Part shown: positions 3,797 to 56,579 of the stretch, in pieces
Layout: every line of letters begins with the position of its first letter
Position numbering within the stretch: the stretch's first letter is position 1
Assembly: GCA_031426355.1 (NCBI GenBank)
Contig: JANPLD010000027.1
Coordinates: 18,907-82,906, forward strand
Direction of reading: 5' to 3'
DNA: 64,000 bases
Source of the DNA: Alphaproteobacteria bacterium
Lineage (GTDB): Bacteria > Pseudomonadota > Alphaproteobacteria > Rickettsiales > UBA8987
Program-made: the position numbers and the translations under genes
The notes under the pieces: model-generated
The model's input: the letters and a program-made list of their open reading frames with translations, nothing else
What the model was told of the DNA's origin: nothing
The model's database searches: none

Positions 3797-4774
3797 ATGG
3801 ATAAGCGCCCTTCAAAAATAACTATAGAGAATGAGGAAAACCAGTCATCATTATTCCTGCCTGTATTTGCAATCGTTGCATTAGGGCTGTTCTTAACTCT
3901 TTGCTGGTATGCCTATAATTATTACATAGATCAGCAGAAGAAGGGAGACGTTTATTATATCAAGGCCGATAAATCCCCTCTTAAAGTTAAGCCTGATAAT
4001 CCGGGTGGTCTAGTTGTTGAAAATCAGGATAAGCAAATATTCAACGCAATGGTTGGTAATGCTGAAAATCTTGATGGTAAAATAAATACTGTTGAAGCTG
4101 AAGAGCCTGCAAGTAAGGAAGATATCGCAAATGCAGTGAAAGTATCTGCAGGTGGTGGCAGTGATGATGAAGTTCCTGAAGAGTTCAAGGACACTGATAC
4201 GCAGATATCAGAAGAAGCCGCTCAGATAAACCTTCCTGGCGCTGACGATAACAAAACAGAAGGTAAAACTATCGGGCAAGCTCCTGTGGTAGTTGATAAT
4301 GAAACCAAGGCTGATGTAAAAGCCGAGCCGGAAGTAACTCCTGAAGTTAAGGTTGAAGCTGTTGATCCGGAAGTTAAAAAAGAAGCTCCTAAAAATGATT
4401 ACGTTGTTACTAAAGAGAAAGATGAAGCAACTGGAGCTAATAAAACTACGGTGACTTTAAAAGCTGATGAAAAGCCTGCTAAAGCTGCGGCTCCTGCGCC
4501 TAAGTCAATGGGTGGTAAGGTTGGTGGCAAAGGTTTTTATGTTCAGATAAGTTCTCATAAGAATATGGCTGACCTTGAAGGTGGCTGGAAGAAATTTTCT
4601 TCTAAATTCTCTTCAGTTTATTCTGGAGTTTCGCGTAATGTTACTGAAGCGACTATTAATGGCGCAAAGTTCTACCGTTTAAGCTTCGGTCCTTATTCAG
4701 ATAGAAATGCAGCAATTGCAAAATGCACAACGCTTAAAGCGCAAAAACAAGATTGCCTGGTGCAGGCATATTAA
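3797..4774 (+). CDS. SPOR domain-containing membrane protein
   Basis: N-terminal TM helix, an acidic Lys/Glu/Pro-rich linker, and a C-terminal SPOR-like module (GFYVQISSHKN...YRLSFGPYSDRNAAIAKC). Confidence 0.75.
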   Translation: MDKRPSKITIENEENQSSLFLPVFAIVALGLFLTLCWYAYNYYIDQQKKGDVYYIKADKSPLKVKPDNPGGLVVENQDKQIFNAMVGNAENLDGKINTVEAEEPASKEDIANAVKVSAGGGSDDEVPEEFKDTDTQISEEAAQINLPGADDNKTEGKTIGQAPVVVDNETKADVKAEPEVTPEVKVEAVDPEVKKEAPKNDYVVTKEKDEATGANKTTVTLKADEKPAKAAAPAPKSMGGKVGGKGFYVQISSHKNMADLEGGWKKFSSKFSSVYSGVSRNVTEATINGAKFYRLSFGPYSDRNAAIAKCTTLKAQKQDCLVQAY

Positions 4775-4779
4775 TAGGG

Positions 4780-4868
4780 CTTAGGGGTTGGGGTTTAGGA
4801 ATTAGAAAATGGATGATATTTCTTCAGTTTTAAAGCCAACCCCTAATCTCCAAACCCTAACCCCCAAG
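4780..4868. repeat. G-rich/C-rich palindromic element (26-nt arms, 37-nt AT-rich spacer) spanning the start of the following CDS
   Basis: The left arm at 4780-4805 (cttaggggttggggtttaggaattag) matches the reverse complement of 4843-4868 at 21/26 positions by manual alignment. The ATG of the next ORF (4809) lies in the spacer. Confidence 0.5.
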
Positions 4869-5951
4869 TCTATCGTCGGTTTTGATACCGGAATAAAAGA
4901 TAATATATATTTTCTTAGTGATGATTTTTTTGAAGGCAAGCTTAGGCCTTACTTGAATTCTATCCTTCCTGATAAAGATTTTAATAAGTCAAAAATTGAA
5001 ATTCCTTCACGTGAAATATTGAAGCTGATAAAGGATTTTCTTAACAATAATAATATTCCTACAAGCTTTACATATGGCGGAACGACCGCAAATATTTTCT
5101 ATAATATCAGCTCCATACTTAATTATTTTAGATCTAATATTGATATAAAATTTGTTGCAACGGGTAAAGAATCCCTTGATGACCTCAAGAAGAAAAATGT
5201 AAAAATCCTTCTTTCTAAAAAAAGTAGTAATTATGCTGAATCAGTTCTGATATATCTTGGTAATAGCCGTTCCAAGCGGACACTTATATATCGCGGTGAC
5301 TTCCAGAAAGTAATATCGGAAAATATTGAAGATGTTAGGTCCCAGGTTTTTCAGGATAATACATTATATATGTTAATGGGTTCCGTTCTTGGTAAAATAG
5401 GTCAGGAGAGTTTTTCAAATATAGTTTCATGTATAAAACAGCTCGGGAACTCCGTATATACGCTTAATCTGCCTACGGACAAAGACACCTCTGTTAAATA
5501 TAATGAGTACCTCTTTGAGCTTATCAGTGGTGCTGCGATAACATTCTCAAATCTTGAGGAGCTATGCTTTCTTTCTGGTTTGAATTTTAGGGAAAAAGAC
5601 TGTTTTGATCTGGGGCAAAATCCCAATGATAATGCTAAATCTGTTTTGAATAGTTTGCAGAGAAATCTCTCGGAGGGTGCTCATGGGCTCATTACTGCGG
5701 GTGAATTTGGAGCGTTTTTAGTGTTTAAAACTGATTATCTATTTATTCCCGCAGTTGAATTTGAAGGGACACCTTATTCAAATGGGGCAGGAGATACTAC
5801 GATAGGTGTTTATATATCTTCTCTTTTGCTTGGTGATAGTCCTGAGATCTCACTGTGGATAGCCATGGAATGCGCTTCCAGCAAGCTTAAGGTCAATTCT
5901 TCAAGGTTGTTTGATATTGGTAAACATTACGCAAAAATTGGCGGCAAATAG
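4809..5951 (+). CDS. PfkB-like sugar/nucleoside kinase family protein (divergent)
   Basis: 380 aa. C-terminal GAGDTTIG motif typical of the PfkB/ribokinase fold, and an N-terminal GGTTAN segment. Otherwise divergent. The first ~20 codons are encoded by the palindromic repeat. Confidence 0.5.
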   Translation: MDDISSVLKPTPNLQTLTPKSIVGFDTGIKDNIYFLSDDFFEGKLRPYLNSILPDKDFNKSKIEIPSREILKLIKDFLNNNNIPTSFTYGGTTANIFYNISSILNYFRSNIDIKFVATGKESLDDLKKKNVKILLSKKSSNYAESVLIYLGNSRSKRTLIYRGDFQKVISENIEDVRSQVFQDNTLYMLMGSVLGKIGQESFSNIVSCIKQLGNSVYTLNLPTDKDTSVKYNEYLFELISGAAITFSNLEELCFLSGLNFREKDCFDLGQNPNDNAKSVLNSLQRNLSEGAHGLITAGEFGAFLVFKTDYLFIPAVEFEGTPYSNGAGDTTIGVYISSLLLGDSPEISLWIAMECASSKLKVNSSRLFDIGKHYAKIGGK

Positions 5952-6123
5952 CGTATTTCAAAGAAGTGTATTTTACGATTCACTTATTATAAAATTTTGA
6001 TATAATAATTACCCTTGTGTTTAGTTATTTAAATTTACCTTAGTGAGAATCTTTAAAATAACCTATTGAAATTCAAGCGCTATAATAAATATCAAAATTT
6101 TTATGATTTTTTTATATTTGTTG

Positions 6124-6152
6124 TTGACTTCAATTTTGGTTACGACTATACA
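6124..6152 (+). promoter_or_regulatory. candidate sigma70-type promoter for the 23S-5S unit
   Basis: TTGACT (6124-6129), 17-nt spacer, TATACA (6147-6152), about 300 nt upstream of the mature 23S 5' end. There is no other support. Confidence 0.3.
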
Positions 6153-6454
6153 CTCGACTCCCAACCGATAGGAAACTAAAAAGTTGGATAGCTTTTTAAA
6201 ATTGTGAATAACGGCATTAGATTGTTGATCAATCAAAAGTTGAGTTGATGTTTGCACTTGAAATATAGTGCGAGACAAACAAATTATCATATGACCTATC
6301 GTTAGGTTGTATGAACAAATAATAATGTATCTGCTTTGTAGAAGTTTAGTTCTGCATTAGATCATTGTAATCTCAAAAATTAATAAGTTTTAGTATTGTG
6401 AATAGCAATGCTGGAACCAGCAAAAAATCGTAATAATTTTTTATGTTTATAAAA

Positions 6455-9266
<2,812 letters not shown>

Positions 9267-9387
9267 TTATATATTTTAATTTACTGAGATTATGATGACT
9301 CTATTGCGGTACTAAAATGCTGCACTGGTAGATACATACATAAACTTTTGTTGATCACTCTAGTAAACTAATGCAAACTCTTTCTTT

Positions 9388-9503
9388 GTCTGGTGGTTAT
9401 GGCTAAGGGGACACACCTGATCCCATCCCGAACTCAGAAGTTAAGCCCTTACGCGCTGATGATACTATGACTTAAGTCATGGGAAAGTAAGTCGCTGCCA
9501 GAC
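9388..9503 (+). rRNA. rrf: 5S ribosomal RNA
   Basis: 116 nt. The terminal helix pairs gtctggtgg with ctgccagac. The conserved CCCATCCCGAACTCAGAAGTTAAGC loop-C/helix III region is present. Confidence 0.9.
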
Positions 9504-9677
9504 TAAAAAAGAGTTTGTTATTAGAGATTTAGATTAATTTAATTGCCGTTATTCACTATTTTAAAAAGACTCATTATCTTTTTCTTTTATTTCATTTCAT
9601 TCGCATTAATTTTACCTTTTTGGTACAATTTTCTACGCCAATTTTATTTGCTCAAATATTATTTAAATTATTTTAAA

Positions 9678-9715
9678 AGGTTTTAAAAAGAAAATAAGGT
9701 TTTAAAAAGAAAATT
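9678..9715. repeat. 19-bp tandem direct repeat (2 copies) in AT-rich spacer
   Basis: aggttttaaaaagaaaata followed by aggttttaaaaagaaaatt, 18/19 identical and head to tail. Confidence 0.6.
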
Positions 9716-9975
9716 AGGATTTACCAAATAAGTTTGGATAAAAGAGAAGGGTAATTTATAAGAATAATGGATTTTTGAGCTTAAAGTCAAAGCTATGCTT
9801 TCAAAAAAATATAAATAAAGTCTACATTTATAAGAAAGCATTATTAAGAAATAAAAAATAAATGTGATTCTGCATATTTTGTTATAACATAACATTAGAT
9901 GTTGATATTTAAATTTTTGAGTTTATATCTTTTGGAATTGGTAGTAATTTGATAATCAATTTTTTGGAGAATAAC

Positions 9976-10242
9976 ATGCATACTCACTCACTTTTCTGGC
10001 ACACTATACACTATCTTCCACTTATCCTTATTATTGCAGCTTTTGTTGCAAGCTTCTTTTCTTCAAAATTAGCTTCTGTTGCTAAAAAATACATTACGGC
10101 TTTTGCTGTGTTTGGATTTTCTGCTCACTTAGTTGATAGTGGTTTTGAATTCGGTCATGCTTTTGAACCTTGCTATGCTTACATCGCTGTAATGGCTGGT
10201 GTTGCGGTTGCTTCAGTTAAAAAAGCTTTCGTTAAAGCTTAA
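9976..10242 (+). CDS. small hydrophobic membrane protein (hypothetical)
   Basis: The ATG at 9976 is preceded by GGAG (9966-9969). The track start at 9949 is a TTG with no RBS. Two or three predicted TM segments. A strong terminator follows. Confidence 0.5.
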   Translation: MHTHSLFWHTIHYLPLILIIAAFVASFFSSKLASVAKKYITAFAVFGFSAHLVDSGFEFGHAFEPCYAYIAVMAGVAVASVKKAFVKA

Positions 10243-10265
10243 TATTGTTTTTTAGAGATATTTAT

Positions 10266-10293
10266 AAGGGCATCTTCGGATGCCCTTTTTTTA
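10266..10293 (+). terminator. Rho-independent terminator
   Basis: The gggcatc and gatgccc arms flank a ttcg loop, followed by a run of 7 T. Confidence 0.75.
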
Positions 10294-10342
10294 TTTTTAA
10301 ATTAGTTTATAAATTTTGTAATAATCAATTTGTTCAATCACA

Positions 10343-11608
10343 ATGCTTCTTTCAGGTTTTATAGTATTATTAATTCTAATTGTAGTTTCAGGGTTTTTCT
10401 CCGCTGCTGAAACTGGTATCACTGCTTCCAGTAAAGCGAAGATCCATAAATTAAAAATGGAAGGTAACAAAAAGGCTAAGTTAATAACAAAACTTCTTAC
10501 TAAAAAAGATCGTCTGATAAGTACTATTCTAGTTGGTAATAATATGGCGAACAGCGCGGCCTCAGCATTTGCGGCAGCTTTAGCGATTAATATTTTTGGT
10601 AACCAGGGTGAAGCTATATTTTATGTAACAATAATTATTACATTAGTAATAATTGTCTTTGCGGAAGTTCTTCCTAAAACTTTTGCCCTTATGTATTCGG
10701 AAAAGGTAGCACTAGGAGTAGCGCCGATAATTTATGTACTTACGAAGATATTATCACCGCTAACTTTTTTTATAGAAAAAGTAGTAAATTATCTGATCCA
10801 GATATTCCATTTAAGAAATCCCGGCTTGCTTCAGGTAGTACACGGTCTTGATGTAATACGTGGTGCAGTTGAACTGCACCACGAGCAGGGCGAAGTTGTG
10901 AAAGAAGATAGGGATATGTTAGGCGGCTTACTCGATCTTGATAACATTGAGGTGTCAGAAATAATGAAGCACCGTAAATATATTGAGGCTTTTGATATTG
11001 AAATGGATTGTGAGGAATTACTCTCAAAGGTTCTATCAAGCCAGTATACCCGTATCCCGGTATATAAAGATAATCCTGATAATATTATTGGTATCCTGCA
11101 TAGTAAAACTTTTATCAAAGCTTTGCATGAGCAGGCTTTGGGAAATATCAATAGTCTTAATATCAGGGAAGTATTGACGGAACCATGGTTTGTACCTGAT
11201 ACTACAACATTACGTGAGCAATTGATCGCTTTCCGCGAAAAACACAGCCATTACGCACTTGTTGTAGATGAATACGGAACTCTACTTGGCCATATAACCC
11301 TTGAGGATGTTTTAGAAGAAATTGTCGGTAATATTGAAGATGAGCATGATAAAAAAATCCGTAAAATAGAAGAGGCGCTTGATGGTTCTTTCATAGTCGA
11401 TGGAACGATCCCTATACGTGATCTTAACCGTGAGCTTGATCTGAATTTCCCATCAGATGATGCTAATACTATTGCGGGTCTAATAATTAATAATGCAGAA
11501 ACAATCCCAACAGTAGGGCAGGCATTCAGTTTTTACGGATATAGGTTTGAGATAATGAAGAAAAAACGTAATCAGGTAACTAAGATAAAGATAAGTAAAG
11601 TTTACTGA
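10343..11608 (+). CDS. HlyC/CorC-family transporter (CNNM/DUF21 TM domain + CBS pair + CorC_HlyC C-terminal domain; TlyC-like)
   Basis: 421 aa. N-terminal SGFFSAAETG motif, AEVLPKT, a central CBS pair, and a C-terminal transporter-associated domain. Confidence 0.9.
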   Translation: MLLSGFIVLLILIVVSGFFSAAETGITASSKAKIHKLKMEGNKKAKLITKLLTKKDRLISTILVGNNMANSAASAFAAALAINIFGNQGEAIFYVTIIITLVIIVFAEVLPKTFALMYSEKVALGVAPIIYVLTKILSPLTFFIEKVVNYLIQIFHLRNPGLLQVVHGLDVIRGAVELHHEQGEVVKEDRDMLGGLLDLDNIEVSEIMKHRKYIEAFDIEMDCEELLSKVLSSQYTRIPVYKDNPDNIIGILHSKTFIKALHEQALGNINSLNIREVLTEPWFVPDTTTLREQLIAFREKHSHYALVVDEYGTLLGHITLEDVLEEIVGNIEDEHDKKIRKIEEALDGSFIVDGTIPIRDLNRELDLNFPSDDANTIAGLIINNAETIPTVGQAFSFYGYRFEIMKKKRNQVTKIKISKVY

Positions 11609-12015
11609 CTATTAGCCGGATAATAACCGTTAGCGCCCATAACAGGTTGTTGATAGTAAGGAAGGTTGTTTTGCATTATAGCGCCATTGTTAAATGTTCC
11701 CGGCGCTGCATATCCAAGTGATCCATAAGGGCTGTTATAAGAAGGCATTGAAGCCTGTTGAACTGGTGGTGGTGCAACTGGTGAAGCGGTGTTACCGATA
11801 TTCCTTCCGGTAGCATAAGGATCAGTAAATAATACTGGAACTGTATTTTGAGTAGGTGCCCTGTTACTAACTGCGAATATAGTACTTTCATCAGCCTGTC
11901 TTGTATACCCCGCAACTGTTGGAGTATAATTTTTATCGACAAGTTCCTGCATGCACGCGGTTGAAGCAAATGCACAGGCTATTGTACAAAAAATATTTAT
12001 TGACTTGTTTGCCAT
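11602..12015 (-). CDS. putative lipoprotein, Pro/Gln/Tyr/Asn-rich (hypothetical)
   Basis: Signal peptide with a lipobox-like AFASTAC, followed by a low-complexity mature part. No recognisable family. Confidence 0.45.
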   Translation of the reverse strand: MANKSINIFCTIACAFASTACMQELVDKNYTPTVAGYTRQADESTIFAVSNRAPTQNTVPVLFTDPYATGRNIGNTASPVAPPPVQQASMPSYNSPYGSLGYAAPGTFNNGAIMQNNLPYYQQPVMGANGYYPANSQ

Positions 12016-42753: not shown

Positions 42754-42840
42754 GTGTCATGCCTGCATAGGTAGGTATCCAGCCAGAACAATATTCTGAA
42801 CTGTAACTTCTCTGGATTCCTGCCTATGCGGCAATGACAC
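42754..42840. repeat. 87-bp palindromic (MITE/RPE-like) repeat, GTGTCAT...ATGACAC family
   Basis: The 29-nt terminal arms are mutually inverted. Each arm matches the arms of the 47038-47124 copy (in reversed orientation) at 24/29 positions by manual alignment, and both copies are exactly 87 bp. Confidence 0.7.
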
Positions 42841-47037: not shown

Positions 47038-47124
47038 GTGTCATTCCCGCGAAGGCGGGAATCTAGAGAAGTTGTAGTTCTAAATATTATTTAGGCTAGA
47101 TACCTGCCTTCGCAGGTATGACAC
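47038..47124. repeat. 87-bp palindromic (MITE/RPE-like) repeat, GTGTCAT...ATGACAC family
   Basis: gtgtcattcccgcgaaggcgggaatctag ... ctagatacctgccttcgcaggtatgacac. The arms are inverted copies of each other (24/29), and each arm contains its own small GC hairpin. The element lies between convergent genes. Confidence 0.7.
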
Positions 47125-52662: not shown

Positions 52663-53019
52663 TTATACGTCTTTGTTATTAACCAGCTCTTGCATCTTCT
52701 GGGCGTTGTCGAAGCTTTTGTCGAGCTTGAAGATTAAATCAGGAATATTACGGATCTTGAGCTGTTTACCCATCTGGTATTTAATTCTTTTTGACATAGG
52801 TTGGAGGATATCAACCATTTTTTCTTTATCTTTTCCACTAAGTGGAATGAAATAAACAAAAGCGTTATGAAGGTCAGGCGTAACTTGAACTTCAGACACA
52901 GTAATATTTATCGCCCTAAAACTTATCGGGTCATAGATATCCTGCCTCATGAATATTTCACTAAGGATAGTTTTTATTTCCTGTCCTACTTTCAGCTGTC
53001 TTGTGGAAAATTCTTTCAT
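52663..53019 (-). CDS. rbfA: ribosome-binding factor A
   Basis: 118 aa. The R..RV..E... pattern is present (STRQLKVGQEIKTILSEIF), and the gene is immediately downstream of infB. Confidence 0.9.
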   Translation of the reverse strand: MKEFSTRQLKVGQEIKTILSEIFMRQDIYDPISFRAINITVSEVQVTPDLHNAFVYFIPLSGKDKEKMVDILQPMSKRIKYQMGKQLKIRNIPDLIFKLDKSFDNAQKMQELVNNKDV

Positions 53020-53020
53020 G

Positions 53021-53089
53021 TTTAGTCGTTAGTTTTTAGTCGTTAGTCGCTAGTTAAAGCTTAAAACTAAAGCCTAACGACTAGTGACT
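53021..53089. repeat. structured infB-rbfA spacer: direct repeat ttagtcgttag (x2) plus inverted partner ctaacgacta
   Basis: The direct repeat occurs at 53022-53032 and 53036-53046. The segment 53037-53046 pairs with 53074-53083, and the pairing can be extended with bulges to roughly 20 bp. Confidence 0.45.
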
Positions 53090-53091
53090 TG

Positions 53092-55626
53092 TTATCCCTC
53101 AAATACTCTTTTTTCGCTTACTTTTTCAAATGCCTCGATAACGTCGCCTTCGCGCATATCTTCGTAATTCTCAAATGCCATACCACATTCAAAGCCTTCG
53201 CGTACTTCTGCAACTTCGTCTTTGAAGCGTTTCAGGGTTTTGAGTTTTCCTTCATGGATAACAACGTTGTCACGGATAAGACGAACGCCTGCGCCACGTT
53301 TAACGATACCATCTCTGATACGGCAACCTGCAACTTTACCCGAGCCCGTAACTTTAAACACCTGTAATATCTCAGCATTACCGAGGAACTGCTCACGGAT
53401 GATAGGTGAGAGAAGGCCGGTTATCATGAGTCTGATATCATCAAGTAAGTTATAGATGATGTTGTAGTAGCGGATATCAATTTTCTCCCTTTCAGCCAAT
53501 GCTTTTGCATTTGCTTCAGCACGAACGTTGAACCCTAGAATTATTGCCCTTACTGCGCCTGCAAGCTGAACATCTGATTCGGAGATCGCGCCAGCTGCCT
53601 GATGCAGAACCCTGATACGGACTTCATCACTTTCAATTTTGCCAATAGAGCTTGTAATAGCTTCAACAGAGCCGTGTACGTCACCTTTGATGATGATGTT
53701 AAGTTCTTTCGTGCCTTCTTTCGCAGTTTTGAACATGCCTTCAATACCGCCTGTCGCAGTAGAAAGCGCTTTGTGCCTTTCAACCTGATTAACCTTTTTA
53801 CGGTATTCAACAATATCCCTTGAGGTTTTTTCATTATCAGCTTTCGCGAATACTTCACCGGCTGATGGAACTTCATCAAAACCTAAAACTTCTACAGGTT
53901 TTGAAGGGCCCGCTTCATCAAGCTGAACACCGTGTTCATCAGTGATGGTTTTAACTTTACCAAATGCCGTGCCTGCAACTATGAGGTCACCTTTTCTGAG
54001 GGTACCTTTCTGTATAAGAAGGGTGGCAACTACGCCGCGGCCTTTGTCGATTTTTGCTTCAACGATAGTACCACGTGGTTTCTGTTTTGTAGATGCTTTA
54101 AGCTCAAGCATTTCAGACTGAACAAGTACTGCTGCAAGCAAGCCATCAATATTGAGTTTCTGTTTTGCAGATATCTCAACGCATTGAACTTCACCGCCGA
54201 ATTCTTCGGAAACTAATTCATATTTAAGTAACTCTTCCTTAATTTTACGAGGGTTAGCGCCCGGCTTATCAATTTTGTTTATTGCAACTATTATAGGAGC
54301 GCCAGCTGCCTTGGCATGATTGATCGCTTCAACCGTTTGAGGCATTACACCGTCATCAGCCGCAACAACTAATATAACTATATCTGTAACGTTCGCGCCG
54401 CGTGCACGCATTGCAGTAAATGCCGCGTGGCCTGGTGTATCAATAAATGTGATCTTATCACCTTCCGCAGTGGTAACCTGATAAGCACCAATGTGTTGGG
54501 TGATTCCACCAGCTTCACCTGATACAACATCTGCTTTACGGATAGCATCAAGAAGTGAGGTTTTACCATGATCCACGTGACCCATAACCGTAACAACAGG
54601 TGGGCGTGAGATAAGGTCAGTATCGTCAATTACTTCTTCGCCGAGTGATATCTCAACGTCTGAAGCAGATACGCGTTTTGCAATATGCCCGAATTCAGAG
54701 ACAAGAAGTTCTGCTGTGTCGGTATCTATTTCATCAGAGCCGCGTTTGATGGAACCAAGTTTCATCAGTTCTTTTATCACGTCAGCAACGCGAACGGACA
54801 TTCTGTTCGCAAGTTCCTGTACGGAGATTATTTCCGGGATGATTATTTCTTTTTGTTTGAATTCCTGATCAGCAGAAGAAACAAGTTTCATTCTCTGTTT
54901 CTGTTTTTTCCTCTGCATTGCTGCGAAAGAGCGCACTCTTTCCTCGCCACTATCAATAAGGGCCTGGGAAATGGTTAATTTTCTTGGACCTTTGTCATCA
55001 TCAAATTTTGGTTTACCGGCTGAAGTTTTCTTTCTTTCCTCGATCTCGTTATCCTGATCTTCTTTGGTAACTTTAGCGCCTTTTCTTTTAGGGCTGCCAA
55101 ATTCAGTAGGTTTAACTTCGAACGGGTTTCCTGAAAATACTGCTTTTTCTTTTTTCTCTTTCTGAATGAACTGTCTTTTTGCTTCGTCTCTTTGTTCCTG
55201 AGTGCCTTCTAAAGTTGCGGCGTTAGTAGCATTTTTAACATTGCGCAGTTCTACAGGCTGAGGTGCCGGAGGAGCTTCTTTTTTATCAAAATCAGCTTTA
55301 GGTATCTCAACTTCAACTCTTGTTTTACTAATAATTAATTGTTGTGCCGCTGCTGCAGCTGAATCTTTTCTTCTTTCGTCTGCCTGTTTGATGGCATCAA
55401 GGCGTGCGAGTCTTTCGTGTTCAGTCAGGCCTGAATCATCATTAGTAAGGAAATCATGTTCGCCCCTTTCATTCTTGTTATTGAATGTGCGTGATTTTCT
55501 AACCTCAACAGTAACGGTTTTGCTCTTGCTTCTAGAGAGGGATTGCTTAACTGTTCCGCCTTCTACTTTTTTACCAAGTGAAAGTGATAGTGTTTTCTTG
55601 TTATTATTTCCTGTATTTTCAGTCAT
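53092..55626 (-). CDS. infB: translation initiation factor IF-2
   Basis: 844 aa. G-domain motifs [18 protein letters not shown]. Lys/Glu-rich N-terminal region. Confidence 0.95.
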
Positions 55627-55799: not shown

Positions 55800-56579
55800 T
55801 TACCATTTGGTAACCAATAAAGTCTGTGGTTTTGTCAAATCCTGAATTTCCTTACCTTTTTCGTCCGTAACTTTTGCGCCCGAGCCAAGAAGGATGGGTA
55901 ACAGAGGTACGTAATCATGAACCTTCAAATTCTGTTCATAGATAGTATGGATATGCCCGTTTGCAAGTAGACAGAAATTGTAGCAATCTCCACCGTAAAC
56001 AACGCTGTCTGCTTTTTTTGCAAGGGCTTCGAAGAATTTTTTGCCGGCCGGGTTGAAGTATTGGGGGCCAGTGGTAGCTAGGATTTTGGGGGTGAGGCTT
56101 AAGGGATAAGGGGTAAGGGGTTTTATTTTTTTATTATTGAAATAAGAAACATATTCTTCCTTTTTGCCTTTTGCCTTTTCCCTTACTCCTATCCAGAGTT
56201 CATCTGTAAACGGCGCATAAACCGCTCCAAGGACGGGAACATTATCAACTATCAAGCCAATCATAATTCCCCACATAGGCCTTCCGGCTGAAAAGCTTGC
56301 AGTGCCGTCGATGGGGTCTATCACCCAGGTGAATTTTGATAATATTTTTGATGAGGATTTGGTAAAGCCGAATTCTTCCCCTAAAATTGAATGACCTTTA
56401 TATTTTTTATTTATCTCTTTCCTCAGGAACTGCTCTATTTCCTTGTCAGCTATGGTAACTAGTGAGCCATCTTCCTTGCTTTTTATATCTGCATTAGATT
56501 TGCGGAAATATTTCAGGGCGATCTTACCCGCCTGTTTTAGCAACTGCTCAGTAAATAATTTATATTCAGTCGTGTTCAT
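55800..56579 (-). CDS. inositol monophosphatase family protein (SuhB/HisN-like)
   Basis: 259 aa. Motifs EEFG and WVIDPIDGT, and a C-terminal GGDCY-type region. Confidence 0.85.
   Translation of the reverse strand: MNTTEYKLFTEQLLKQAGKIALKYFRKSNADIKSKEDGSLVTIADKEIEQFLRKEINKKYKGHSILGEEFGFTKSSSKILSKFTWVIDPIDGTASFSAGRPMWGIMIGLIVDNVPVLGAVYAPFTDELWIGVREKAKGKKEEYVSYFNNKKIKPLTPYPLSLTPKILATTGPQYFNPAGKKFFEALAKKADSVVYGGDCYNFCLLANGHIHTIYEQNLKVHDYVPLLPILLGSGAKVTDEKGKEIQDLTKPQTLLVTKW
56085..56189. repeat. G-rich/C-rich palindromic element embedded in frame in the IMPase-family CDS
   Basis: The G-rich arm at 56085-56123 is related to the element at 4780-4868 (27/36 aligned positions with one codon indel). 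An AT-rich spacer follows. The partner arm at 56174-56186 pairs with 56100-56111 (11/12). Confidence 0.4.

What the first reader, a model, noticed from the sequence alone, without database searches (positions are those of the whole stretch)
4780..4868. G-rich/C-rich palindromic element that supplies the start codon and first ~20 codons of a PfkB-like gene
In an AT-rich genome this tract is conspicuous. The 26-nt arm at 4780-4805 (cttaggggttggggtttaggaattag) and the arm at 4843-4868 are inverted copies (21/26), separated by a 37-nt AT-rich spacer. The only available start codon of the 380-aa ORF (ATG at 4809, with no further Met for about 190 codons) lies in the spacer, and the C-rich arm is translated as KPTPNLQTLTPK.

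A second copy inside another gene encodes almost the same peptide (see the finding at 56085-56189). This suggests a mobile palindromic element that tolerates or exploits in-frame insertion, as was described for RPEs in Rickettsia protein-coding genes.
Basis: partly seen in the sequence, partly recalled or inferred. Interest (0 to 1): 0.65.

Follow-up and report, generated by a model that had tools for sequence, protein, structure and literature searches.

The report
Repeat hairpin donates a gene's start
A small hairpin-forming repeat, one of a family that fills the gaps between genes in this uncultured Rickettsiales-like bacterium, landed in front of a sugar-kinase-like gene and now supplies its start codon and first ~20 amino acids, which shows how selfish or structural repeat DNA can be turned into protein sequence.

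Summary
Arms 4780-4805 and 4843-4868 pair at 21/26 across a 37-nt spacer. As RNA the tract folds at -38.6 kcal/mol (z -3.9). ATG 4809, in the loop, is the only ATG/GTG/TTG start ahead of the conserved first strand of the PfkB-like protein.

The tract is an insertion. A congener (G001) has only 23 nt between the SPOR-gene stop and IVGFDTG and no element. Four distant homologues also begin 4-9 residues before that strand. A sister species (67-71% identical protein) carries the element at the same site.

It belongs to a real family. Each arm is about 4.5 tandem heptamers (ATAGGGn-TTAGGGG-TTGGGGn-TTAGGGG-TTAG). Significant arms number 10 in this genome, 21 and 71 in two congeners, and 0-3 in most relatives. 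Copies run from an upstream stop codon to the downstream ATG. Related heptamer hairpins lie in frame inside truB and aroE as genus-specific inserts.

The "second copy" in the IMPase gene is only partly one. Its C-rich arm is similar, but its spacer is ancestral coding sequence and its hairpin is not significant.

The behaviour is RPE-like. By anatomy, however, the element belongs to the little-studied G-rich heptamer-array hairpins (Xanthomonas/Nostoc type; the same design as the arms of PF05635 cassettes), not to RPEs. How it moves is unknown.

The parts
3797..4774 (+). Upstream SPOR-domain gene. Its TAA stop (4772-4774) directly abuts, and shares its last A with, the element's ATAGGG terminus.
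   Evidence: ORF and Pfam SPOR, E 1.4e-11. The C-terminus ..QDCLVQAY* is conserved in G001 and L007.
4774..4806 (+). G-rich 5' arm of about 4.5 heptamers (ATAGGGC TTAGGGG TTGGGGT TTAGGAA TTAG). It holds a Shine-Dalgarno-like AGGA (4797-4800) 8 nt before the ATG, and an in-frame TAG (4803-4805).
   Evidence: Arm-model hit at C27:23680-23712, E 5e-8. nhmmer E 3e-6. Alignment A6. Sequence read.
4806..4842 (+). 37-nt spacer holding ATG 4809-4811. Compared with the closest paralogue (infA-maf copy) it carries about 20 extra nt, AATGGATGATATTTCTTCAG.
   Evidence: ATG GAT GAT is conserved in sister species L007.
4836..4871 (+). C-rich 3' arm, translated as (K)PTPNLQTLTPKS. The one heptamer whose TAA would fall in frame reads CAA (4851-4853).
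   Evidence: Arm-model hit at C27:23742-23772 (-), E 5.4e-5. Frame analysis. In L007 the same unit reads CAG.
4809..5951 (+). PfkB-family (ribokinase-like) kinase gene of unknown substrate. Residues 1-21 come from the element; conserved protein begins at I22 (IVGFDTG).
   Evidence: Pfam PF00294, E 1.8e-15. No NCBIfam model above cut-off. Orthologue alignments A8 and A9.
56085..56189 (-). The proposed second copy, inside the IMPase-family gene 55800-56579. It is an in-frame C-rich heptamer arm (KPLTPYPLSLTPK) plus a purine-rich Lys/Glu/Gly stretch, flanking ancestral coding sequence.
   Evidence: Protein alignment A3. Fold z -1.4. Arm similarity 27/36.

Best explanation
The tract 4774-4871 is one copy of a lineage-specific family of hairpin elements. 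Each arm is about 4.5 tandem G-rich heptamers (ATAGGGn TTAGGGG TTGGGGn TTAGGGG TTAG), paired with its complement.

These elements occupy cistron junctions. The first unit abuts or supplies the upstream stop codon, and the last unit ends 0-5 nt before the downstream ATG.

This copy replaced the 23-nt junction between the SPOR-domain gene and a rare PfkB-family kinase gene. That happened in the common ancestor of this species and a sister species, after the split from congener G001. The original TTG start, 7 codons before the first beta-strand, was lost.

The kinase now starts at an ATG in the enlarged loop, 8 nt after an AGGA in the last G-arm unit. It reads through the C-arm as a 12-residue Pro/Thr/Leu-rich tail. 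Heptamer arrays rotate their TAA through all three frames, so read-through required the one in-frame unit to change to CAA (CAG in the sister species).

Inferred, not shown:
- The stem (-38.6 kcal/mol) sequesters the SD, so initiation probably depends on ribosomes that terminate at the SPOR stop codon. That codon lies 2 nt from the stem base and 34 nt from the ATG, which would allow translational coupling or reinitiation.
- The added tail is a tolerated, disordered N-terminal extension with no function of its own.
For: - Inverted repeat and fold.
- Only start codon, with an upstream in-frame stop.
- Conserved synteny argS-SPOR-pfkB in G001, with only 23 nt between the stop and IVGFDTG and no element. 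The NCBI-annotated G001 protein starts MFEKIKNIVGFDTG.
- Distant homologues P0004, P0006, P0019 and P0057 start 4-9 residues before that strand.
- An independent assembly of a sister species (L007; protein 67-71% identical) has the element at the same site. It keeps ATG GAT GAT, has the same 21-codon length, and has CAG at the in-frame unit.
- Family: four full hairpins and solo arms in this genome. The arms align in heptamer register.
- Arm counts are 10 / 21 / 71 / 19 / 18 in G000, G001, G002, G004 and G008, against 0-3 in 21 other relatives.
- Closest paralogue is C70:2550-2627, where infA's TAG lies inside ATAGGG and the maf ATG overlaps CCTAT|G.
- The infA-maf junction is empty in G002 and filled by a different heptamer hairpin in G001.
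- Three compensatory pairs among the three related copies.
- No promoter-like or terminator-like call at the element, so co-transcription with the SPOR gene is likely.
- In the AF2 model, residues 1-30 have pLDDT below 50.
Against: - There is no transcript, ribosome or peptide data. Only one DNA metagenome holds the sequence.
- Only three orthologues exist, so the direction (gain rather than loss in G001) rests on distant homologues and on the tract being repeat-family sequence.
- A stem of about 25 bp is a plausible RNase III substrate. Cutting both arms would detach the ATG from the coding region.
- The SD role of AGGA and the coupling to SPOR translation are inference.
- In L007 the G-arm is open in frame, so an upstream TTG start cannot be excluded there.
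- The AF2 model is weak (mean pLDDT 60.6, three sequences).
Confidence: 0.72

Rival explanations
1. This is an RPE-type MITE. It would be a non-autonomous transposon with terminal inverted repeats, moved by a transposase in trans, which inserts in frame into genes as RPEs do in Rickettsia.
For: - Multi-copy family with shared termini ATAGG...CCTAT.
- Patchy expansion, with 71 arms in G002.
- Filled and empty sites between congeners.
- In-frame copies in truB, aroE, murD and a glycosyltransferase.
- RPE precedent (PMC10969869).
Against: - No target-site duplication at any of the four full copies.
- The arms are arrays of tandem heptamers, and the heptamer word differs from locus to locus. There are about two dozen hairpins of at least five word types.
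- The same infA-maf junction holds a different word in G001.
- The elements replace the old spacer rather than adding to it.
- Placement is junction-specific, from stop codon to start codon.
- No RAYT reaches the family cut-off. No transposase was linked to the element.
Confidence: 0.15
2. This is the decayed shell of a PF05635 ('23S rRNA intervening-sequence protein', S23p) cassette. A four-helix-bundle gene once sat between the arms, and the loop ATG is the relic of that gene's start codon, now fused to pfkB.
For: - The genome has two PF05635 genes, each enclosed by inverted heptamer arrays at cistron junctions. One arm starts ATAGGG, and an SD plus ATG follow directly after the G-arm.
- Relatives carry such cassettes between petA-petB and sucC-sucD.
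- The G004 cassette reads ..TTTTAGAAATTATGGAG.. against el1's ..ATTAGAAAATGGAT...
- el1's loop is about 20 nt longer than its paralogue's loop.
Against: - None of the 23 PF05635 hits in G000, G001, G002, G003, G004 and G008 has clear TTAGGGG-type arms. The only overlap is one marginal hit (E 0.01) in G004.
- The 9 loop codons are too short to show homology to PF05635.
- The other gene-less copies have loops of 5-15 nt and no ATG.
Confidence: 0.2
3. The hairpin is a non-coding RNA or DNA structure (RNase III site, G-quadruplex/i-motif regulator or attenuator). The open frame through it would be incidental, and PfkB would start elsewhere or be dying.
For: - A long, near-perfect stem.
- Heptamer-type hairpins also sit in the 23S rRNA of this window, at 6579-6662. 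IVS hairpins are cut by RNase III (PMC4990558).
- G-rich heptamer arrays form G4 structures in vitro (PMC4692102).
Against: - There is no other ATG/GTG/TTG before codon 49, yet residues 22-48 are highly conserved, with IVGFDTGIKDNIYF (22-35) identical in G001.
- The frame, the ATG GAT GAT and the 21-codon length are kept in the sister species, and the single in-frame TAA unit is changed in both.
- The catalytic NGAGD motif and 51-71% identity across three species argue for a live gene.
- The el1 G-arm has only three G3+ tracts.
Confidence: 0.1
4. The N-terminal residues are ancestral and the palindrome is chance.
For: None beyond the existence of the ORF.
Against: (orthologues and distant homologues lack the residues). 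(0.07 loci expected by chance). (repeat-family membership).
Confidence: 0.02

Closest known systems
G-rich heptamer repeat arrays of Xanthomonas (GGGAATC) and Nostoc (GGGGA(C/T)T), Rehm et al. 2015, PMC4692102. Also the four-heptamer elements of Geobacter metallireducens, Aklujkar et al. 2009, PMC2700814.
   Same: - Unit of 7 nt with a G-tract.
- Preference for about four units.
[quoted passage not shown]
- Placement between co-oriented ORFs.
- Frequent convergent inverted pairs able to form stem-loops.
- Presence conserved between species while length and sequence vary.
- In Geobacter, occurrence within genes as well as between them.
   Different: - A different heptamer word (TTAGGGG) and a different lineage (a Rickettsiales-like MAG).
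- Here the array pair carries a start codon in its loop and is half translated.
- Those papers report under-representation in coding regions and no donation of a start or an N-terminus.
Rickettsia palindromic elements (RPE), Ogata et al. 2000, as summarised in PMC10969869.
   Same: Palindromic repeat families in a reduced alphaproteobacterial genome that sit in frame inside unrelated housekeeping genes and add a peptide segment tolerated by the fold (here).
   Different: - RPEs are about 150 bp, and each family encodes a conserved peptide.
- The elements here are 75-105 nt with arms made of tandem heptamers.
- Most copies here lie between cistrons, and the peptide similarity comes only from reading similar C-rich heptamers.
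- Sequence homology to RPE consensus sequences could not be tested.
ORF-bearing 23S rRNA intervening sequences / PF05635 (S23p) cassettes, e.g. the Coxiella burnetii IVS, Warrier et al. 2016, PMC4990558.
   Same: A long stem whose arms flank an insert placed in transcribed DNA. In this genome and its relatives, PF05635 genes are enclosed by inverted heptamer arrays at cistron junctions with the same stop-arm ... arm-ATG anatomy.
   Different: - el1 has no PF05635 gene.
- No TTAGGGG-armed PF05635 gene was found in six genomes.
- RNase III excision, the defining behaviour of an IVS, would destroy this mRNA's start.

Membership tests
G-rich heptamer-array inverted repeats (Rehm 2015 type) | Arms are tandem 7-nt units, each with a G-tract, about four units per array | tested here: met
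   Ten arms align in heptamer register as ATAGGGn-TTAGGGG-TTGGGGn-TTAGGGG-TTAG.
G-rich heptamer-array inverted repeats (Rehm 2015 type) | [quoted passage not shown] | tested here: met
   Seen in el1, C70, C68 and C26, and in G002 copies. In all 24 of 24 hairpins the G-rich arm is 5'.
G-rich heptamer-array inverted repeats (Rehm 2015 type) | G-quadruplex formation by the array | not testable with these tools
   The el1 G-arm has three G3+ tracts plus GG. Testing needs CD spectroscopy.
Rickettsia palindromic elements (RPE) | Palindromic repeat inserted in frame in protein-coding genes, adding a peptide | tested here: met
   PfkB N-terminus. truB and aroE genus-specific inserts.
Rickettsia palindromic elements (RPE) | Sequence membership in one of the RPE families (about 150 bp, family-specific conserved peptide) | not testable with these tools
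   No RPE consensus is held. Rfam gave no hit at the element. The size (75-105 nt) and the heptamer arms differ from the published description.
MITE | Terminal inverted repeats flanked by a target-site duplication | tested here: not met
   Termini ATAGG...CCTAT are present, but no direct repeat flanks any of the four full copies. The old spacer is replaced rather than kept.
MITE | A cognate autonomous IS with matching ends | not tested
   No systematic transposase survey was made.
REP/REPIN-RAYT | A RAYT (Y1 transposase, PF01797) gene in the genome | tested here: not met
   Best hit is 20.1 bits, below the 23-bit cut-off, on a small contig.
PF05635 / 23S-IVS cassette | A PF05635 four-helix-bundle gene between the arms | tested here: not met
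   The loop is 37 nt. The two PF05635 genes of the genome are at C118 and C126, with other heptamer words.
PF05635 / 23S-IVS cassette | Inverted heptamer arms at a transcribed junction, with SD plus ATG directly after the 5' arm | tested here: met
PF05635 / 23S-IVS cassette | Excision of the stem-loop from RNA by RNase III | not testable with these tools
   No RNA data are available.
Intrinsic terminator | GC-rich stem directly followed by a U-run | tested here: not met
   No terminator-like call on the + strand at 4774-4871. AAGUCUAUCG follows the stem.

The most novel reading that the evidence does not exclude
Heptamer-armed hairpins may be a cistron-junction device rather than junk. The stem would bring the upstream stop codon and the downstream start codon together at its base, so that terminating ribosomes pass across the hairpin and reinitiate without a Shine-Dalgarno sequence. 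This would be a bacterial counterpart of the short-ORF-plus-stem ribosome shunt of caulimoviruses.

In favour: infA, maf, pilT, pyrG, ftsH and ychF in this genome all have a C-arm and no SD directly before the ATG. In infA the arm replaced the AAGAGG seen in a congener. The stop triplet in every heptamer would end any upstream frame within three units.

On this reading el1 is a variant in which the start moved into the loop.
Probability: 0.1. Interest if true: 0.8.

Novelty: new variant of a known kind. Interest (0 to 1): 0.5.

Why it matters
This is a clean, polarised example of repeat DNA becoming protein-coding. A junction-filling hairpin displaced a gene's own start and now provides SD, ATG and 21 codons. 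The price, losing the one in-frame TAA of a heptamer array, is visible in two species.

It also shows that heptamer-array hairpins, so far described mainly as non-coding G-quadruplex-forming repeats in Xanthomonas, Nostoc and Geobacter, behave in a Rickettsiales-like lineage much as RPEs do in Rickettsia. They expand patchily, turn over at conserved operon junctions, and persist in frame inside essential genes such as truB and aroE.

For annotation, gene starts next to such hairpins need care. The sister-species protein was called with 19 extra residues read from the G-arm.

The strict anatomy invites a test of whether these hairpins affect translational coupling: 24 of 24 hairpins have the G-rich arm 5', and the full TTAGGGG-type copies run from stop codon to start codon.

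Tried and rejected
- **More PfkB orthologues.** Pattern scans of genome contigs and metagenome contigs found none. Only 3 close proteins exist in the 5.8-billion-cluster index.
- **Transcript evidence.** The only run holding the locus is a freshwater-sediment DNA metagenome. Laying its contigs on 4500-5200 returned nothing.
- **Known RNA family.** Rfam finds only 23S and 5S rRNA in 4000-12000.
- **Terminator or promoter at the element.** No call.
- **REPIN-RAYT.** No RAYT above the cut-off.
- **el2 as a full copy.** Rejected. Its spacer is ancestral, and the protein is only about 5 residues longer than in congeners. The fold gives z -1.4. Genome-wide BLAST, nhmmer and the arm model do not link it to el1, although the C-arms align 27/36 pairwise.
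- **Loop ATG as a relic of a PF05635 start.** Could not be tested on 9 codons. No TTAGGGG-armed PF05635 gene was found in six genomes.
- **Strict G/C-tract regex scans.** They missed most copies because the units are degenerate.
- **AF2 model.** With 3 sequences the model is weak (mean pLDDT 60.6). It is used only for the low-confidence N-terminus.

Full report
**1. Observation.** The sequence is as described. Arms 4780-4805 (CTTAGGGGTTGGGGTTTAGGAATTAG) and 4843-4868 are 81% complementary (21/26), with 37 nt between them. In the whole 64-kb window only three loci reach 21/26 with a 3-80 nt spacer, against 0.07 expected from block shuffles. As RNA, 4772-4874 folds into one long stem at -38.6 kcal/mol, with z -3.9 and 0 of 200 shuffles as stable. 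The genome (2.25 Mb, 136 contigs) has 38.6% GC. The arms are 46-50% GC and almost purely G on one side and C on the other.

**2. The gene and its start.** ORF 4809-5951 (380 aa) is a PfkB/ribokinase-superfamily protein (Pfam E 1.8e-15). No NCBIfam model reaches its cut-off, so the substrate is unknown. An in-frame TAG at 4803-4805 closes the frame. After ATG 4809 the next ATG/GTG/TTG is codon 49, and the next Met is residue 188. The conserved protein begins at I22 (IVGFDTGIKDNIYF, identical in the congener), so ATG 4809 in the loop is the only canonical start. An AGGA at 4797-4800, in the last heptamer of the G-arm, lies 8 nt upstream. No promoter-like or terminator-like site separates the gene from the upstream SPOR-domain gene.

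**3. Is the N-terminus inserted?
- The protein is very rare. There are three close sequences among 5.8 billion clusters and eight hits below 1e-10 among 1.84 billion representatives.
- In congener G001 the synteny argS-SPOR-pfkB is kept. There only 23 nt lie between the SPOR stop and ATT GTT GGT (IVG), with no G/C-rich tract. Its annotated protein starts MFEKIKNIVGFDTG.
- Four distant homologues also start 4-9 residues before that strand. A short N-terminus is therefore ancestral.
- An independent assembly from another sample (L007, SRR13608703; protein 67-71% identical) has the element at the same site and reads MDDYSNLKSLTPNPQPLSPKS-IIGFDTG. It keeps ATG GAT GAT and has the same 21 codons.
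- The element was therefore acquired after the split from G001, is old, and is maintained. The gene caller extended the L007 protein by 19 residues through the G-arm, which is an annotation hazard.

**4. Reading through a heptamer array.**
- The C-arm consists of units of the form CCCCTAA. Because 7 = 2x3+1, the TAA rotates through all three frames.
- In the window the five units carry CAA, TAA, CAA, TAA, CAA in frames 1, 2, 0, 1, 2. The only in-frame unit is CAA.
- In L007 four of five units keep TAA. The single changed unit (CAG) is the in-frame one.
- This is the signature expected if the arm is translated.
- Three pairs change on both sides among the three related copies. This is weak evidence that pairing is also kept.

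**5. The family.**
- Loose motif, nhmmer and covariance-model searches find four full hairpins in this genome: el1, C70:2550-2627, C68:36842-36911 and C26:3970-4036. They also find solo arms, for example upstream of infA and ychF.
- Ten arms align in register as ATAGGGn-TTAGGGG-TTGGGGn-TTAGGGG-TTAG.
- The closest paralogue of el1 is the infA-maf copy. It shares the left end ATAGGGCTTAGG, then ATTAGAA, then TTTTAAA(T/G)CCAAC. el1 differs by about 20 extra loop nucleotides (AATGGATGATATTTCTTCAG, which contain the ATG) and by one extra unit.
- The anatomy is strict. infA's stop TAG lies inside ATAGGG, and the maf ATG overlaps the final CCTAT|G. In C68 the upstream TAG is again in ATAGG, and the pyrG ATG follows CCCCTAGATA. 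In C26 the hairpin spans from the stop of a pilY1-like gene to the pilT ATG.
- None of these downstream genes has an SD. Copies in G002 show the same stop-ATAGGG ... CCCTAA-ATG layout.
- A period-7 scan finds about 60 heptamer arrays in the genome and about two dozen tight hairpins. The words include TTGAAGT, TTAGAGT, TAAGGGR, TTAGTCG and TAGTACT. In 24 of 24 hairpins the G-rich arm is 5'.

**6. Turnover and in-frame copies.**
- Arm-model hits at E <= 0.05 number 10 (G000), 21 (G001), 71 (G002), 19 (G004) and 18 (G008), against 0-3 in 21 other genomes of the family and order.
- The infA-maf junction is empty in G002 (12 nt). In G001 it is filled by a hairpin of a different word (GTTAATC type). 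In G010 it is unstructured.
- Full hairpins lie in frame in truB (WELGIRHWELGNQKDQLLTPNSQPL) and aroE (MEVGSGKLEEKNTSNFKPQTSN). Solo arms lie in murD and a glycosyltransferase.
- Alignments show that the truB and aroE segments are present, and diverging, in all three congeners and absent from other genera. The G002 truB insert is itself an arm-model hit.

**7. The cited second copy (56085-56189).**
- Its C-rich arm aligns to el1's at 27/36 with one codon indel (0 of 2000 shuffles). It is read in the same phase, which explains KPLTPYPLSLTPK against KPTPNLQTLTPK.
- The 'spacer' encodes SYFNNKKI, which is homologous to SYYNNKMI in congeners.
- The protein is only about 5 residues longer than theirs.
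- The 'G-arm' is a Lys/Glu/Gly purine run that overlaps the conserved G-x-(R/K)-G.
- The hairpin is not better than shuffles (z -1.4).
- It is best read as an old in-frame solo arm, not as a transposed copy of el1.

**8. How it probably works.**
- Shown: the anatomy, the insertion, the ORF maintenance and the family.
- Inferred: the SPOR stop UAA lies 2 nt before the first paired base (4777) and 34 nt before the AUG. A terminating ribosome would melt the stem base and free the AGGA and AUG that the stem otherwise sequesters. PfkB synthesis would then be coupled to SPOR-gene translation.
- The added residues precede the first beta-strand and have pLDDT below 50 in a weak AF2 model, which fits a tolerated floppy tail.
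- An alternative fate is RNase III cleavage of the ~25-bp stem, as for rRNA intervening sequences. That would separate the AUG from the gene and so act negatively. It cannot be tested here.

**9. Comparison with what is known.**
- The closest description in print is the G-rich heptamer arrays of Xanthomonas and Nostoc: four units, convergent inverted pairs, position after stops and before starts, between co-oriented ORFs. The four-heptamer elements of Geobacter occur within and between genes.
- RPEs share the in-frame behaviour but not the build.
- PF05635 cassettes in this genome and its relatives share the arm design and the junction placement. However, no TTAGGGG-armed PF05635 gene was found.
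- MITE and REPIN criteria (target-site duplication, RAYT) were tested and not met.
- I therefore file el1 as a new variant of the heptamer-array hairpin kind. The new features are the donation of SD, start codon and N-terminal peptide, and the RPE-like spread into housekeeping genes of a Rickettsiales-like lineage.

**10. Limits.** There are no expression data and only three orthologues. The mobility mechanism is unknown, and the coupling model is inference.

Noticed in passing
window 42754-42840 and 47038-47124: Two 87-bp palindromes of a different family (GTGTCAT...ATGACAC, each arm with its own GC mini-hairpin). They were the only other loci in the window to pass the 21/26 inverted-repeat scan. 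A related GTCAT...ATGAC element sits nested in or next to TTAGGGG hairpins in congener G002 (L069, L070).
   Followed up: partly
window 6579-6662 (inside 23S rRNA, 6448-9273): The 23S rRNA carries an ~80-nt extra hairpin near its 5' end whose arms look like heptamer units (CGTTAGT CGTTAAT / GATTAAC AACTAAC). It looks like a gene-less intervening sequence of the same design as the mRNA-junction hairpins.
   Followed up: partly
window 53021-53090: Another heptamer hairpin (TTTAGTC GTTAGTT TTTAGTC GTTAGTC ...) lies directly after the infB stop (infB is 53092-55626, minus strand). It uses the same GTTAGTC-type word as the 23S insert.
   Followed up: partly
G000 C70:2303-2337 (outside the window): A solo C-rich arm (four units) directly precedes the infA ATG. 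It replaces the 5' leader that in congener G001 contains AAGAGG, so the essential infA gene has no recognisable Shine-Dalgarno sequence here.
   Followed up: partly
G001 L060:1720-1805; G002 L061:1718-1735: The same infA-maf junction is filled by a GTTAATC-type heptamer hairpin in G001 and is empty (12 nt) in G002. The same word type flanks a PF05635 gene between sucC and sucD in G002 (L053).
   Followed up: yes
G000 C7:18971-19049 (truB); C110:14804-14874 (aroE); C16:257-312 (murD); C15:20093-20129 (glycosyltransferase): Heptamer hairpins or solo arms are read in frame inside housekeeping genes. The truB and aroE inserts are shared, and diverging, among the three congeners and absent from other genera. 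G001 and G002 have further inserts at other positions of truB and aroE.
   Followed up: yes
window 4809-5951: The PfkB-like kinase is very rare (3 close sequences in 5.8 billion clusters) and has no NCBIfam assignment. It sits between a SPOR-domain gene and the 23S rRNA gene.
   Followed up: partly
G000 C83:1436-1669: A sub-threshold match to the Y1 transposase family (20.1 bits; cut-off 23) on a small contig. It may be a decayed IS200/RAYT-like gene or contamination.
   Followed up: no
G000 C118:45400-45470, 52737-52819, 70022-70057: Copies of another widespread repeat type (CTCTCCC..GGGAGAG hairpin followed by GGTTAGGGTGAGGG) were seen during the G-tract scans.
   Followed up: no
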